A stretch of 64,000 bases of DNA from Methanobacteriota archaeon (GTDB lineage Archaea; Thermoplasmatota; Thermoplasmata; SG8-5; JAGLSY01). The position numbers and the translations under genes were made by a program. The notes under the pieces were generated by a model, which did not search any database, had not been told where the DNA came from, and worked only from the letters and a program-made list of their open reading frames with translations. Location: assembly GCA_020696385.1 (NCBI GenBank), contig JAEHCQ010000001.1, positions 288,001 through 352,000 on the forward strand. Reading direction: 5' to 3'. Of this stretch, positions 56,463 through 64,000 are shown piece by piece. Positions within the stretch are counted from its first letter, which is position 1. Each line of letters opens with the position of its first letter.

Positions 56463-56472
56463 AACCTACTAT

Positions 56473-56527
56473 AGTGGTCAAAGTTCATAACCAAAATGAG
56501 GAAAAATGACCACTTACTGGTCACTTT
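56473..56527 (+). repeat. Left 55-bp inverted repeat
   Basis: 48/55 match to the reverse complement of 62316-62370; outer 19 bp identical; contains TGACCA-N5-TGGTCA (56507-56523). Confidence 0.92.
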
Positions 56528-59902: not shown

Positions 59903-60460
59903 ATGACAGGCGAACCAATGATCGTGCCCGATATTCAAACAGAGAGAATGACACTTCGCCAGCTGACAGAAGATGATATGGATTTCATCTTCGACATGTT
60001 CAGCAGGCCGGAGACCAACCTGTATGTGGCGGATGATGATGTCAAGACCATGGAGGAAGCCGTGGAACTCTACGAGACCTTCATCAAACCAAAACCATAC
60101 CTTTTCAGACTGGGCATGGTGTTGAAAGAAGATGGCAATCTCATCGGAACCCTGGGCTTATATGGAATAAACATTGAAGATAGAAAGGGGAAGTTGGGAG
60201 TCGATCTCTTCAAGGAGCATTGGGGAAAAGGATTGATGAGCGAGGCCGTGCAGGCTCTGATACGATACGGGTTCGAGGAAATGAATTTGAACAGGATAGA
60301 GGCCTCGGCAGACCCGGGTAACCACAGATCTCTCAACCTCATCAAGAGAACTGGCATGGTCAAGGAAGGCGTGAAGAGGCAGGTGGATTGGTATGAGGGG
60401 AGATTCCACGATGATGTGTTATTTTCCATACTTCGAGAAGAATGGCAAGCTCGTAATTAA
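59903..60460 (+). CDS. GNAT acetyltransferase, RimJ/RimL-like
   Basis: TERMTLR, WGKGLMSEA and LNRIEA...N..S motifs. Confidence 0.9.
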   Translation: MTGEPMIVPDIQTERMTLRQLTEDDMDFIFDMFSRPETNLYVADDDVKTMEEAVELYETFIKPKPYLFRLGMVLKEDGNLIGTLGLYGINIEDRKGKLGVDLFKEHWGKGLMSEAVQALIRYGFEEMNLNRIEASADPGNHRSLNLIKRTGMVKEGVKRQVDWYEGRFHDDVLFSILREEWQARN

Positions 60461-61181: not shown

Positions 61182-62231
61182 ATGGTCCAGGATTTCAAAT
61201 GCCAAAGCTGTGCCGCTCCCCTCAAATTCGATCCCAGTGAGAAAGGATTGAAGTGTGAATATTGTGGGTCCACAGAGGTCATCATGGTTGAGAGAAAGGC
61301 CATTCTGGAACATGACCTTTTTTCTGCCCCAGCCAACATTGGCTGGGGCACGAATACCAAGAGCATCACATGCGAATCCTGCGGAGCGAAGACATCGGCC
61401 GATCTGAAGATATCCGGGAATTGCGCCTTTTGTGGTTCCAATTTTGTCAAGGAATTGGAACCAGATCCAAACCTGATAAGGCCAGAGAGTTTGATACCCT
61501 TTTCAATAGAGAAGGACAATGCACTGTCTCTTTTCAAAAAATGGCTGGGTAAGGGATTTTTCCGTCCATCCAATCTAAAAAAGCTTGGTAGACTGAAGAA
61601 CATACATGGTATCTACATCCCCTTCTGGACATATGATTGTAATGCCCACTCAAATTGGACTGCCATGAGCGGTTATCATTACTACGTCACCGAGACCTAT
61701 AGGACAGATGAAGGAACAAAGACCAGACAGGTTCGAAAGACGAGATGGGTTCCATCGAATGGGAGAAGGCAGGGATTTTACAATGATGTTCTCGTGCCAG
61801 CTTCCAAAGGTCTGGATCATGATCTTGCAAGTAAGATATATCCATTCCATCTCCAACAATTGACACCGTACAAGTCTGAATTCCTCGCAGGCTGGATGGC
61901 CGAGGAATATGCAATATCATTGCCTGAAGGATGGCTGGTCGCACAGAAAAAGGTTCGAAGTTCAGAATACTCCGAATGCTCCAGAGATGTCCCAGGCGAC
62001 ACGCATACAGGGTTAAGCGTACACACGACCCTGACTGATCCAAAATACAAGCATGTTCTACTCCCTGTCTGGGTCGCCTCCTATCATTATAAGAAAAAAC
62101 TTTATCATTTTCTTGTCAATGGACAGACTGGAGAGGTACAGGGCGAGGCTCCGATATCTTGGCTCAAGGTCGCAGCTGTGATCCTTGCTGTAGCGGGTGT
62201 GGTCATGACTATCTGGCTATTATCGAATTGA
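61182..62231 (+). CDS. Zinc-ribbon protein with C-terminal TM helix
   Basis: Four CxxC motifs, P..LIPF, YIPFWTYD, LLPVW and VNGQTGEV.GEAP.S..K; C-terminal TM helix. Confidence 0.82.
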   Translation: MVQDFKCQSCAAPLKFDPSEKGLKCEYCGSTEVIMVERKAILEHDLFSAPANIGWGTNTKSITCESCGAKTSADLKISGNCAFCGSNFVKELEPDPNLIRPESLIPFSIEKDNALSLFKKWLGKGFFRPSNLKKLGRLKNIHGIYIPFWTYDCNAHSNWTAMSGYHYYVTETYRTDEGTKTRQVRKTRWVPSNGRRQGFYNDVLVPASKGLDHDLASKIYPFHLQQLTPYKSEFLAGWMAEEYAISLPEGWLVAQKKVRSSEYSECSRDVPGDTHTGLSVHTTLTDPKYKHVLLPVWVASYHYKKKLYHFLVNGQTGEVQGEAPISWLKVAAVILAVAGVVMTIWLLSN

Positions 62232-62315
62232 TGCTCCTCCTTCTTTATCATATATCATAATATGATCATTGTATTATGATTCAATGATACTACTGGCATA
62301 TATTTTTGATTCTGA

Positions 62316-62370
62316 AAAGTGACCATAAAGTGGGGATTTTTGCTCAATTTAGTTATGAACTTTGACCACT
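62316..62370 (-). repeat. Right 55-bp inverted repeat
   Basis: Reverse complement matches 56473-56527 at 48/55 positions. Confidence 0.92.
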
Positions 62371-62417
62371 CTATTTAGTATTAGACTTCGGGAAAAGGGG
62401 TCTAGGATGTGAAAAAA

Positions 62418-62546
62418 ATGAACTACAATAAAAAAGTCGTGCAGGCATTGAGAAAGGTTGGCCGAACGGTCAGATCAGAGCTAACAGCAGCAGAAAGAGC
62501 GAGCCCAGCTGTATTGAGACATGTGGCAGCCCACTGGGGCGGTTGA
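62418..62546 (+). CDS. Micro-ORF 1 (42 aa, basic)
   Basis: MNYNKKVVQALRKVGRTVRSELTAAERASPAVLRHVAAHWGG; GGATGTGA SD-like element upstream. Confidence 0.5.
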   Translation: MNYNKKVVQALRKVGRTVRSELTAAERASPAVLRHVAAHWGG

Positions 62547-62571
62547 TCAGGAAGATGATGGAGGTAAGAAC

Positions 62572-62691
62572 ATGATAAAAATATTGATAGATGCGATACA
62601 CAAATCTGTTAAGGACGATGATACAGTTGGAAAAGACAAGAAAATAAGCCCTTCGCTCAATTGCATCCCTCTTTACGATAGAGCAGTATAA
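62572..62691 (+). CDS. Micro-ORF 2 (39 aa)
   Basis: MIKILIDAIHKSVKDDDTVGKDKKISPSLNCIPLYDRAV; GGAGGT SD 6 nt upstream. Confidence 0.55.
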   Translation: MIKILIDAIHKSVKDDDTVGKDKKISPSLNCIPLYDRAV

Positions 62692-62708
62692 AGTGGGAGA
62701 GTGCCAAG

Positions 62709-62840
62709 ATGATCGTAACAGTAAAACATGACCTTTATGCTGATCTTCAGAGGATCGAGAATAGGGGGAAAAAGAATGCAAAGAAATTTTCTATCCTCAA
62801 TATCCTGAGCAGATCTAAAAGAAGAACTGGAGGGAGATAG
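62709..62840 (+). CDS. Micro-ORF 3 (43 aa, basic; similar to the N-terminus of the 63759 ORF)
   Basis: MIVTVKHDLYADLQRIENRGKKNAKKFSILNILSRSKRRTGGR; GGGAGAG SD; motif shared with 63759. Confidence 0.65.
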   Translation: MIVTVKHDLYADLQRIENRGKKNAKKFSILNILSRSKRRTGGR

Positions 62841-62948
62841 ATGAGTGATCAGGATGAATTTACAAACACCATTAGACTCCTTCTCTTTGGAGAGGATGAT
62901 GAAGATAAAATAGCAGATATTGAGATAGCAGACCATTCGCCAATATGA
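62841..62948 (+). CDS. Micro-ORF 4 (35 aa, acidic)
   Basis: MSDQDEFTNTIRLLLFGEDDEDKIADIEIADHSPI; GGAGGGAG SD; ATG abuts the previous TAG. Confidence 0.55.
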   Translation: MSDQDEFTNTIRLLLFGEDDEDKIADIEIADHSPI

Positions 62949-63032
62949 ATGGTCGACTATCTCCCCTCATTTTGATCATTATTACATTTTATACACCATG
63001 TTTAAAATATTTTCATCCACATATCCCGGCTC

Positions 63033-63575
63033 ATGCAGGGTTTGGAGATAAAAAGAATTCCCAGAGAAGAGCTGATTGACAGGGTTACGATATTTTCCTA
63101 CGAATCAGACAGCTATTATCGTGTGACCATCAATGAAAAGAATGATGGGTGGTCGATAGATCTTAAGCGTAAGGAGTTCCCCCAGACCTTTATAAAAAAT
63201 GATTCCACAGATAAGCTAGTACATGATTTCAAGGGAGATTCAGAGATATATCTGGCATACCTTGATGGAAAGGAAGCTGGTCAGTTGCAGATCGAGTTCC
63301 AAGAATACAATAAAAGCATAAGAGTTTGGGATATAGATATCTGGCCAGGATACCGTAGAAAGGGTATCGGAAAGGCTCTTATGGACCTGTGTAAGAAGAG
63401 AGCGGTGGATATCAATGCCAGACGTATAGTTCTGGAAGTGCAATCATCGAACTCAAAGGCAATTGAATTCTACCTGGCCATGGGCTTCAAGCTCATTGGA
63501 TTGGATGGAAGCCATTATTGTAATGATGATATGGATAGAGGAGAGGTCAGATTGGAGATGGCCATACACCTTTGA
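63033..63575 (+). CDS. GNAT acetyltransferase (streptothricin-acetyltransferase-like)
   Basis: YRRKGIGKALM and LEVQSSN..AI.FY..MGF.L.GLD motifs. Confidence 0.9.
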   Translation: MQGLEIKRIPREELIDRVTIFSYESDSYYRVTINEKNDGWSIDLKRKEFPQTFIKNDSTDKLVHDFKGDSEIYLAYLDGKEAGQLQIEFQEYNKSIRVWDIDIWPGYRRKGIGKALMDLCKKRAVDINARRIVLEVQSSNSKAIEFYLAMGFKLIGLDGSHYCNDDMDRGEVRLEMAIHL

Positions 63576-63650
63576 TCTTGATAATATATTTTACACTCGA
63601 GTAAAAGGCAAATATAAATGCCTTATTTTCTCAAGCAACAATCTATTGCT

Positions 63651-63685
63651 ATTATGTGACAATAGTGATGCATTATGTGACAATA
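63651..63685. promoter_or_regulatory. 14-bp direct repeat, 21-bp period, upstream of the 63759 ORF
   Basis: ATTATGTGACAATA at 63651-64 and 63672-85. Confidence 0.5.
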
Positions 63686-63758
63686 TTAGATTAGGCATTA
63701 AAAACATATTTATGATAGTTCCAACAATGGGCAATATGTATTTTGATTGGGTGAAGAC

Positions 63759-64000
63759 ATGGGTCGCGACATATACGCAGATTTGGAAAAGATAGAGGAA
63801 CGCGGAAAGCGTAAGAAAAAGGGATTCCTTTCTTTCATGGGCGGAAAGGAGCCAGGGGAAGAATCGCCCCCAGTTCACACAGTTTCTGCCTTCAGTGGTA
63901 ACCCGGACCCACCGACAGCTCCAACTCCCAAGCCAAAGCCTGTGGAGCAGGAGATCATTGAGACCGAGGAATGGATACCACTCAAGGGTCGAAAATTAAA
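63759..64000 (+). CDS. Partial CDS running off the window; basic N-terminal helix then Pro-rich linker
   Basis: GGGTGA SD; open frame MGRDIYADLEKIEERGKRKKKGFLSFMGGKEPGEESPP... to the window end. Confidence 0.7.
   Translation, partial: MGRDIYADLEKIEERGKRKKKGFLSFMGGKEPGEESPPVHTVSAFSGNPDPPTAPTPKPKPVEQEIIETEEWIPLKGRKL

What the first reader, a model, noticed from the sequence alone, without database searches (positions are those of the whole stretch)
62709..64000. Micro-ORF 3 mimics the N-terminus of the downstream protein
Seen: HDLYADLQRIENRGKKNAKKFSILNIL (ORF3) versus RDIYADLEKIEERGKRKKKGFLSFMGG (63759 ORF), giving D[LI]YADL..IE.RGK followed by a basic-hydrophobic stretch. The DNA differs at several synonymous sites, consistent with protein-level selection and supporting translation of ORF3. 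Known: KKGFL..F-type amphipathic helices are membrane-targeting sequences in MinD. Inference: a stand-alone decoy or competitor peptide for the larger protein's targeting or interaction motif.
Basis: partly seen in the sequence, partly recalled or inferred. Interest (0 to 1): 0.75.

Follow-up and report, generated by a model that had tools for sequence, protein, structure and literature searches.

The report
Mini-protein sharing a conserved archaeal peptide module
A 43-codon reading frame carries the same short, highly conserved helical motif as the start of a nearby 129-residue protein, because both belong to an undescribed protein-module family of one group of uncultured archaea whose genes sit next to acetyltransferase genes.

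Summary
ORF3 (62709-62840) and the 63759 gene share 12 of 20 residues (E 3e-8). A profile built without any sequence of this genome picks out only three places in its six frames: the big gene, ORF3 and a third copy on contig C48.

The big gene is only 129 aa. It has the N-terminal motif, a disordered linker and a C-terminal helical hairpin. Its family is conserved across one order of uncultured Thermoplasmata, and the motif is nearly invariant.

The motif is a reusable module of about 25-30 aa. It occurs once to three times per protein, and several conserved mini-protein subfamilies carry it.

ORF3 has no orthologue in the four nearest genomes. One 76%-identical homologue exists in a metagenome.

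Module genes lie beside two GNAT acetyltransferases: 9 of 13 and 15 of 17 loci. ORF3 sits upstream of one of them.

Most likely ORF3 is a paralogous module mini-protein, not a dedicated mimic. Its translation, a decoy role and a MinD-like membrane role are all untested.

The parts
62316..62390 (+). Repeated promoter/operator-like element upstream of the micro-ORF cluster. It contains an imperfect palindrome (GTGACCA..TGGTCA type) and an A/T-rich box.
   Evidence: 84-86% identical copies at C33:44379-44452 and C11:344470-344527(-); copies in G001, G002, G003 (77-92%); each copy in G000 lies just upstream of a small-protein gene. That it is a promoter or operator is inferred.
62418..62546 (+). 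Micro-ORF 1 (42 aa from ATG 62418; 45 aa from GTG 62409)
   Evidence: G001 has a 50-aa ORF whose N-terminus resembles ORF1 and whose C-terminus resembles ORF2. Neither form of ORF1 is in the 15-billion-protein collection.
62572..62691 (+). Micro-ORF 2 (39 aa from ATG 62572; 56 aa from ATG 62521), GGAGGT 6 nt upstream of 62572
   Evidence: A homologous 44-aa ORF follows the same repeat element in G003. The 56-aa form is a called gene in the collection.
62709..62840 (+). Micro-ORF 3, 43 aa: the finding. GGGAG lies 9 nt upstream of the ATG, and its TAG stop abuts the ATG of ORF4.
   Evidence: AlphaFold2 with alignment A2 gives a single helix over residues 9-40, mean pLDDT 73.9. The exact sequence is not a called gene in the collection.
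62730..62789 (+). The shared module core inside ORF3 (residues 8-27)
   Evidence: ORF3 keeps 8 of the 9 residues that are invariant in the N-terminal motif of the 129-aa family; the ninth, K19, is N in ORF3.
62841..62948 (+). Micro-ORF 4, 35 aa, GGAGGGAG upstream
   Evidence: It is homologous to residues 11-27 of a 41-aa ORF in G001 (10/17, E 9e-7). It is a called gene in the collection.
63033..63575 (+). GNAT acetyltransferase, 180 aa ('GNAT-S'), streptothricin/nourseothricin-acetyltransferase-like
   Evidence: Pfam Acetyltransf_1 at 8.8e-16. The closest solved chain is 5c82_A, nourseothricin acetyltransferase, E 1e-15 over residues 21-176. All NCBIfam hits are below their cut-offs. A module gene lies beside its orthologues in 9 of 13 genomes.
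63759..64000 (+). 5' part of the 129-aa module protein P0001; the gene continues 148 bases past the window, with its last codon at C11:352145 followed by the stop
   Evidence: AlphaFold2 model: helix 5-15, low confidence over 20-70, helices 78-100 and 105-118 with pLDDT above 90.
63768..63827 (+). The shared module core at the N-terminus of P0001 (residues 4-23)

Best explanation
ORF3 is a lineage-specific, probably translated member of an undescribed, order-restricted family of proteins built around one short helical module. The module has a core D-x-Y-x-D-L-x-x-I-E-x-R-G-K followed by a polybasic stretch with a few hydrophobic residues. Its likeness to the N-terminus of the 63759 protein is homology of that module, not mimicry aimed at that one protein.

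Shown: the module is real and strongly conserved. It is used alone, repeated, or joined to other parts. Module genes keep company with two GNAT acetyltransferases. ORF3 lies upstream of GNAT-S, the position that another module mini-protein holds in the sister family.

Inferred: the module is a docking and/or lysine-acceptor element for these acetyltransferases, or a basic binding peptide switched by them. On that reading ORF3, the C48 mini-protein and the 129-aa protein would share a partner, so competition between them is possible but secondary.
For: Homology and constraint:
- BLASTP gives E 3e-8.
- The leave-out profile gives ORF3 E 1.5e-7, with the next non-family hit at 4.4.
- pS is 0.95 against pN 0.30.
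- ORF3 keeps 8 of 9 invariant motif residues.

Module family:
- P0001 alone finds 37 hypothetical proteins, none with a Pfam domain.
- The profile finds 38 short proteins and 52 clusters among 1.84 billion representatives. Of these, 25 are under 100 aa and 12 of 52 carry 2-3 copies of the motif.
- The motif was found in 17 of 151 genomes of the class, all in the window's own order. Outside that order it was found in 0 of 133.

ORF3-type homologue: P0110 shares 25/33 residues (E 7e-16), including residues outside the core.

Gene-like layout: the four micro-ORFs are spaced 25, 17 and 0 nt apart, ORF2-ORF4 with purine-rich GGAGG-like boxes upstream.

GNAT linkage:
- GNAT-S orthologues were found in 13 of 22 order genomes.
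- A module gene lies on the same strand within about 400 bp in 9 of those 13: G000, G001, G004, G007, G011, G012, G013, G014, G018.
- An FR47-like GNAT is adjacent to the 129-aa-family gene in 15 of 17 loci. It is convergent in the window's family and divergent in the sister family.
- GNAT-S resembles enzymes that acetylate a lysine-type amine.
Against: - No ORF3 orthologue was found in G001-G004. G001 goes from the ORF1/2-like gene straight to an ORF4-like gene, G003 has only an ORF2-like gene, and G002 has no micro-ORFs between the zinc-ribbon gene and GNAT-S.
- ORF3 was not called as a gene in the public collection, although the shorter ORF4 was.
- The only ORF3-type homologue is a chimeric frame whose second half matches thermonuclease proteins. 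Only residues 1-33 are therefore shown to be conserved.
- GNAT-S was not found in 9 of 22 order genomes, including genera rich in module copies. G002, G005, G006 and G008 have GNAT-S without an adjacent module gene. GNAT-S therefore cannot be an obligatory partner.
- No acetylation, binding or expression data exist.
- The selection signal rests on 20 codons.
Confidence: 0.5

Rival explanations
1. Dedicated decoy. ORF3 evolved to compete with the 129-aa protein for the partner or target of its N-terminal motif, and so to damp that protein's function.
For: ORF3 is a single-module protein related to a larger neighbour and lies 1 kb upstream on the same strand. It keeps the conserved core but lacks the C-terminal hairpin. 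This fits the definition of microProteins given in the abstracts of PMC7584889 and PMC7534434 (seen in the listing).
Against: The module is shared by many protein types, so nothing ties ORF3 to this one protein. ORF3 groups better with the motif-only mini-proteins that carry a long basic helix than with the P0001 N-terminus. The closest relative, G002, keeps the 129-aa protein without any ORF3. ORF3 and the large gene are in separate transcription units, with GNAT-S and a hairpin plus T-run between them.
Confidence: 0.15
2. Non-functional remnant. ORF3 is an untranslated leftover of a module gene or of a rearranged cassette, and its good motif reflects past rather than present constraint.
For: It is absent from G001-G004. 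The micro-ORF cassette differs in every genome of the genus. ORF3 is not a called gene. Its only homologue is a chimeric frame. A 43-codon open frame is not rare in DNA of this composition (my estimate, not computed).
Against: The ATG is intact, a GGGAG box sits at a suitable distance, and the stop abuts the next start. All 8 core residues are kept while synonymous sites are saturated. Conservation with P0110 is 76% over 33 residues, including the first six residues, which lie outside the motif. ORF3 holds the same position relative to GNAT-S as conserved mini-proteins in six genomes of the sister family.
Confidence: 0.25
3. Peripheral membrane anchor. The polybasic/hydrophobic stretch after the core binds acidic lipids, as the MinD C-terminal helix does, and ORF3 is a free membrane-binding peptide.
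For: A basic run followed by G-F/L-x-S-F type residues recurs in the family, and in one mini-protein subfamily it is at the very C-terminus. One module protein also has two predicted membrane spans. MinD binds membrane through a C-terminal amphipathic helix that is weak as a monomer (PMC8155659, passages read).
Against: ORF3's best hydrophobic moments are matched by 292-786 of 2000 shuffles. The largest moment in P0001 falls in the conserved core helix, not in its tail. AlphaFold2 leaves residues 16-30 of P0001 without a helix. The invariant core residues argue for a specific protein partner, since mere lipid affinity would not need them (inference). This rival is not exclusive of the best explanation.
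Confidence: 0.15
4. Toxin-antitoxin-like pair. GNAT-S is a GNAT toxin and the upstream micro-ORFs are its antitoxins.
For: Small genes lie directly upstream of a GNAT of about 180 aa on the same strand.
Against: The micro-ORFs have no ribbon-helix-helix or other antitoxin domain, and neither GNAT nor micro-ORFs match a PADLOC model. GNAT-S is closest to antibiotic or polyamine-type acetyltransferases. It is single-copy at a conserved position in the sister family. In G002 it stands without any upstream small gene.
Confidence: 0.04

Closest known systems
microProteins (miPs) of plants and animals
   Same: A small protein consists of one interaction module that is sequence-related to a larger protein encoded in the same genome. 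The definition comes from the abstracts of PMC7584889, PMC7534434 and PMC5381583 (listing).
   Different: No target binding or dominant-negative effect is shown. The module is shared by many proteins rather than one target family. The organism is an archaeon. The larger protein is itself only 129 aa with no known activity.
MinD C-terminal membrane-targeting sequence
   Same: It is a short basic stretch followed by a few hydrophobic residues near a protein terminus. MinD's is an amphipathic helix (PMC8155659).
   Different: There is no ParA/MinD ATPase domain. The stretch is preceded by an invariant acidic-hydrophobic helix that MinD lacks. Amphipathicity is not above shuffles. In P0001 it is N-proximal, not C-terminal.
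Lysine-rich acceptor tails of GNAT substrates (histone-tail-like or Pat-substrate-like; recalled, not from a call)
   Same: An invariant Gly-Lys sits within a polybasic stretch, and the genes are adjacent to GNAT genes.
   Different: No acetylation is shown. The GNATs here are not members of the histone acetyltransferase or Pat families by any test run.
Streptothricin/nourseothricin N-acetyltransferases (for the neighbouring GNAT-S)
   Same: GNAT-S aligns over almost its full length to 5c82_A (E 1e-15). NCBIfam STAT/Sat models are among the top hits.
   Different: Scores are 52-59 bits against cut-offs of 360-420, so it is not an equivalog. The substrate is unknown.

Membership tests
Module family defined here (core D-x-Y-x-D-L-x-x-I-E-x-R-G-K plus basic tail) | Significant match to a profile built without the candidate | tested here: met
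   ORF3 scores E 1.5e-7 (33.4 bits) against a profile of 16 sequences from other genomes. The next non-family segment scores E 4.4.
Module family defined here | Invariant core residues Y, D, L, I, E, R, G, K | tested here: met
   ORF3 has Y10 D12 L13 I16 E17 R19 G20 K21. The ninth invariant residue of the 129-aa family (K19) is N23 in ORF3.
129-aa family (P0001 orthologues) | C-terminal helical-hairpin domain (W-x-P-L...Y-K...C...K-E-x-E-L-G) | tested here: not met
   ORF3 ends after 43 residues and has no such domain. ORF3 is therefore a module-only protein, not a member of this family.
microProtein | Small single-module protein related in sequence to a larger protein | tested here: met
microProtein | Binds the larger protein or its partner and interferes with it | not testable with these tools
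   No tool here gave an answer on what ORF3 or the module binds. A binding or interference assay at the bench is needed.
MinD-type membrane-targeting sequence | Amphipathic helix with a clear hydrophobic face | tested here: inconclusive
   for ORF3, 292-786 of 2000 shuffles reach the observed moment. predicts a helix over 9-40 in ORF3, but predicts no helix over 16-30 in P0001.
MinD-type membrane-targeting sequence | Attached to a ParA/MinD ATPase | tested here: not met
   no Pfam domain of that kind in ORF3, P0001 or 29 family members.
SHOCT domain (considered for the C-terminal hairpin; resemblance recalled) | Match to Pfam SHOCT | tested here: not met
   0 of 29 members match it at E up to 1.
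GNAT toxin / small antitoxin pair | Antitoxin-type domain in the upstream small protein; toxin-type GNAT | tested here: not met
   no such Pfam, NCBIfam or PADLOC match.

The most novel reading that the evidence does not exclude
An order-specific peptide tag system. The invariant helix docks on dedicated GNAT acetyltransferases (GNAT-S and the FR47-like enzyme), and the invariant Gly-Lys in the polybasic tail is acetylated. This would switch the binding of module proteins to membrane or to another anionic partner. Free mini-proteins such as ORF3 would then act as competing substrates or regulators of the larger module proteins, which would make them an archaeal counterpart of microProteins coupled to an acetylation switch.
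Probability: 0.15. Interest if true: 0.7.

Novelty: new variant of a known kind. Interest (0 to 1): 0.45.

Why it matters
Small proteins of archaea are poorly charted, and uncultured Thermoplasmata have almost no characterised lineage-specific systems. This case offers a rare, sharply conserved peptide module of 25-30 residues. It has only 52 clusters among 1.84 billion representative proteins, with no Pfam, NCBIfam, PDB or literature match in the searches run.

The module occurs both as free mini-proteins and inside larger proteins, and its genes lie beside two acetyltransferase genes in most loci examined. That yields a concrete, testable idea: a peptide substrate or docking tag for GNATs. 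It also gives a natural set of long and short forms for asking whether prokaryotes use microProtein-style competition.

For annotation, it shows that at least some of the tightly packed micro-ORFs in these genomes are real gene families that gene callers miss.

Tried and rejected
- Complex prediction of the P0001 C-terminal domain (residues 66-129, alignment A1) with ORF3 (alignment A2): no verdict, score 0.02 against a mark of 0.32, controls not run. I do not use it either way. Separately, genomes G005 and G008 carry a module mini-protein but no detectable C-domain. That argues against the C-domain being the module's general partner.\n- Public sequencing runs: none was listed for 62300-64000, so no RNA holder is listed, and read laying was not used.\n- ESM Atlas: no usable hit.\n- Earlier findings of this scan: nothing near the place or by sequence.\n- Foldseek against the PDB with the P0001 model: no match at E up to 0.001, only generic helical hairpins.\n- SHOCT idea for the C-domain: rejected.\n- JGI metagenome scan for ORF3-type relatives: 288 pattern matches, none confirmed.\n- Viral contigs: 2 weak matches that lack the R-G-K part, judged chance. 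I therefore found no sign of a viral origin.\n- PADLOC: nothing.\n- Bacterial-type promoter scan: no more sites than in shuffles. It does not cover archaeal promoters.\n- ORF4 against the 57-aa partner ORF of the C48 cluster: no similarity.\n- The 41-aa ORF of G001 against ORF3: no BLAST alignment. The likeness of its first six residues to those of ORF3 and P0110 is too short to test. So there is no dN/dS and no gene context for the only ORF3-type homologue.
Full report
THE OBSERVATION

ORF3 (62709-62840, 43 aa) and the frame that starts at 63759 are present as described. BLASTP aligns ORF3 residues 8-27 with residues 4-23 of the other protein: 12/20 identical, 16/20 similar, E 3e-8.

A pattern scan of all six frames of the genome finds the combined motif at three places only. 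The genome is G000: 2.28 Mb, 50 contigs, 45.5% G+C, and the window is C11:288001-352000. The three places are ORF3, the 63759 gene, and a 60-aa frame at C48:109441-109623.

To avoid circularity I built a profile from 16 motif sequences of other genomes and searched all 64,718 stop-to-stop segments of at least 20 aa in G000. The 63759 gene scored E 1.1e-18, ORF3 1.5e-7 and the C48 copy 2.8e-7. The next segment scored 4.4.

At the DNA level the 20 codons share 35/60 bases. Of the 12 identical residues, 8 use different codons. Nei-Gojobori counts are 10.5 synonymous differences on 11.0 sites and 14.5 non-synonymous on 49.0. The two copies are therefore old, and the peptide, not the DNA, was conserved. 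The sample is small, and the constraint may belong to ancestors of ORF3.

THE LARGER PROTEIN

Reading past the window end shows that the gene encodes only 129 aa (P0001). It has no Pfam, NCBIfam-relevant or PADLOC match.

A search of 5.8 billion proteins found 37 relatives at E up to 0.001 among 48 candidates. All are hypothetical proteins, none has a Pfam domain, and a few are misnamed after their proline-rich linker. The record titles of relatives call them Thermoplasmata or Methanomassiliicoccales archaeon MAGs. G000 has no mcrA at 94.5% completeness.

I aligned 29 of the 37, leaving out P0004, P0009, P0010, P0012, P0015, P0030, P0033 and P0037 as near-duplicates or fragments. The alignment shows three parts:
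- An N-terminal motif with Y6 D8 L9 I12 E13 R15 G16 K17 K19 invariant.
- A Pro/Glu-rich linker of very variable length.
- A C-terminal domain of about 55 residues with W72 P74 G77 A83 Y90 K91 C108 K115 L119 G120 invariant.

AlphaFold2 with this alignment gives a short helix over 5-15 (pLDDT about 60), low confidence over 20-70, and a confident helical hairpin over 78-100 and 105-118 (pLDDT above 90). Foldseek found nothing specific. A SHOCT-like reading that I recalled was not borne out: 0 of 29 members matched.

THE MOTIF IS A MODULE

Six-frame searches of relatives show the motif and the C-domain apart from each other and in varying numbers:
- Three motif copies followed by one C-domain (L009; P0075, P0076).
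- Two motifs and nothing else in about 100-aa proteins (L045; P0038, P0039).
- One motif in a 441-aa protein with two hydrophobic spans and a zinc ribbon (L040; P0103).
- Four C-domains without a motif in a 1498-aa acidic zinc-ribbon protein (L038).

A profile search for short proteins gave 38 hits at E up to 0.01 among 769 candidates. Their sequences fall into conserved mini-protein subfamilies:
- Subfamily A: 44-57 aa, motif at the N-terminus followed by an acidic tail.
- Subfamily B: 66-79 aa, motif and basic-hydrophobic tail at the very C-terminus.
- Subfamily C: 49-72 aa, beginning M-R-N-Y-E. The C48 copy (P0044) belongs here.
- Subfamily D: double-motif proteins.

An exhaustive HMMER search of 1.84 billion representatives found only 52 clusters at E up to 0.001. 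Of these, 25 are shorter than 100 aa and 12 have two or three motif stretches.

Among 151 genomes sampled from the class, the motif was found in 17. All are in the window's own order (families f1 4/4 plus G000, f4 9/9, f2 2/2, f3 1/2). It was found in 0 of 133 genomes of other families.

ORF3 ITSELF

Evidence for a real gene:
- An ATG start.
- GGGAG 9 nt upstream.
- Spacing of 25, 17 and 0 nt between the four micro-ORFs, with the ORF3 stop abutting the ORF4 start.
- 8 of the 9 invariant motif residues kept.
- A predicted single helix over 9-40, mean pLDDT 73.9.
- One homologue, P0110, with 25/33 identical residues (E 7e-16), including the first six residues and the K-K-N-A-K stretch that lie outside the shared core.

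Evidence against:
- DNA and protein searches of the three congeners and one confamilial genome found no ORF3. They found only the N-termini of the 129-aa orthologues.
- The cassette differs in every genome. G001 has the repeat element, one 50-aa ORF that looks like ORF1 joined to ORF2, then directly an ORF4-like gene. G003 has the element and an ORF2-like gene only. G002 goes from the zinc-ribbon gene straight to GNAT-S.
- The exact ORF3 sequence is not a called gene in the public collection, although the 35-aa ORF4, the 56-aa form of ORF2 and the C48 mini-protein are.
- P0110 comes from a 731-bp contig, and its second half matches thermonuclease (PF00565) proteins. It is therefore a chimeric frame, and only residues 1-33 are shown conserved.

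The first refutation test ('absent in relatives') is thus met for the four genomes at hand but not in general.

THE NEIGHBOURS GIVE THE BEST CLUE

The gene between ORF4 and P0001 (63033-63575) is a 180-aa GNAT, here called GNAT-S. Its closest solved relative is nourseothricin acetyltransferase (5c82_A, E 1e-15 over nearly the full length). NCBIfam hits to STAT/Sat and RimI models are far below their cut-offs.

Orthologues were found in 13 of 22 genomes of the order.
- In six genomes of the sister family (G007, G011, G012, G013, G014, G018), a subfamily-C module mini-protein lies just upstream on the same strand. In three of them (G007, G013, G014) a conserved 49-50-aa ORF sits between.
- In G001 and G004 the 129-aa-family gene lies just downstream.
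- In G000 both hold: ORF3 upstream and P0001 downstream.
- G002, G005, G006 and G008 have no module gene beside GNAT-S.

That makes 9 of 13.

The 57-aa ORF that follows the C48 mini-protein in G000 is homologous to that 49-50-aa ORF (31% identity, E 1e-8). So in G000 the typical subfamily-C pair sits elsewhere, and ORF3 occupies the position upstream of GNAT-S.

A second GNAT, FR47-like and about 250 aa (Pfam), is adjacent to the 129-aa-family gene in 15 of 17 loci, the own locus included. It is missing in L008, which ends at a contig edge, and in L017, which is not a canonical member. It is tail-to-tail in the window's family and head-to-head in the sister family.

These genomes are related, so the counts are not independent events. 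Still, adjacency kept through rearrangement, for a motif with one to five copies per genome, is unlikely to be accidental.

GNAT-S is not universal. It was not found in 9 of 22 genomes, among them two genera rich in module copies.

MECHANISM

Shown: a conserved helical core with an invariant R-G-K, followed by a basic stretch; modular use; linkage to two GNAT genes.

Inferred: the core helix is a docking surface for a conserved protein partner. The most likely candidates are the adjacent acetyltransferases, with the lysine-rich tail as acceptor or as a charge-dependent binding element. I recall that GNAT acceptor lysines often follow a glycine; no call supports this. Under this reading ORF3 and P0001 share a partner, and competition follows naturally, but no result shows it.

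The MinD-type membrane reading is not excluded. However, helical-wheel numbers do not support it, and the invariance of the core points to a protein partner.

A remnant reading keeps about a quarter of the probability.

COMPARISON AND NOVELTY

The nearest concept is the microProtein: a small single-module relative of a larger protein (abstracts seen). Membership beyond the sequence criterion cannot be tested here.

The module family has no match in Pfam, NCBIfam or PADLOC. No paper in the held library contains the three motif strings searched. I rate it a new variant of a known kind, of moderate interest.

Noticed in passing
window 62316-62390; also G000 C33:44379-44452 and C11:344470-344527 (window about 56470-56527, minus strand): A repeat of about 74 bp with an imperfect palindrome and an A/T-rich box precedes three different small-protein units in G000. 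Copies at 77-92% identity occur in G001, G002 and G003. It looks like a shared promoter plus operator of a small regulon. One downstream gene encodes a 120-aa two-span membrane protein.
   Followed up: partly
window 62409-62691: ORF1 and ORF2 look like paralogues of one ancestral small gene. G001 has a single 50-aa ORF with an ORF1-like head and an ORF2-like tail, and G003 has only the ORF2-like form.
   Followed up: partly
G000 C48:109201-110219 (locus L042:1256-2217): This is a second cluster of tightly packed micro-ORFs. It holds a 54-aa ORF with an internal 11-residue tandem duplication, the subfamily-C module mini-protein (P0044), a conserved 57-aa partner ORF that overlaps it by ATGA, and then a 132-aa protein of no known family.
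   Followed up: partly
L038:3831-8327 (G017:C99): A 1498-aa, extremely acidic protein carries four copies of the C-terminal hairpin domain, many zinc ribbons and two hydrophobic spans. It lies downstream of a CDC48-type AAA ATPase and a 410-aa zinc-ribbon membrane protein.
   Followed up: no
P0110 (81 aa, metagenome contig of 731 bp): The only ORF3-type homologue is fused in frame to the last 45 or so residues of a thermonuclease-like protein. This suggests a rearrangement at that locus.
   Followed up: partly
window 59903-60460, 63033-63575 and just beyond the window (L001:3397-4164, minus strand): Three different GNAT acetyltransferase genes lie within 4.5 kb: a RimJ/RimL-like Acetyltransf_3, GNAT-S and the FR47-like GNAT.
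   Followed up: partly
window 61182-62231: A 349-aa protein has two N-terminal zinc ribbons and a C-terminal hydrophobic span and belongs to no family. It is conserved directly upstream of this region in G002 and G003.
   Followed up: no
G001 C74:3697-3822 (L043): A 41-aa ORF has first six residues that resemble the heads of ORF3 and P0110, while residues 11-27 match ORF4 (10/17). This would fit an in-frame deletion that removed the motif in G001, but the head match is too short to test.
   Followed up: partly
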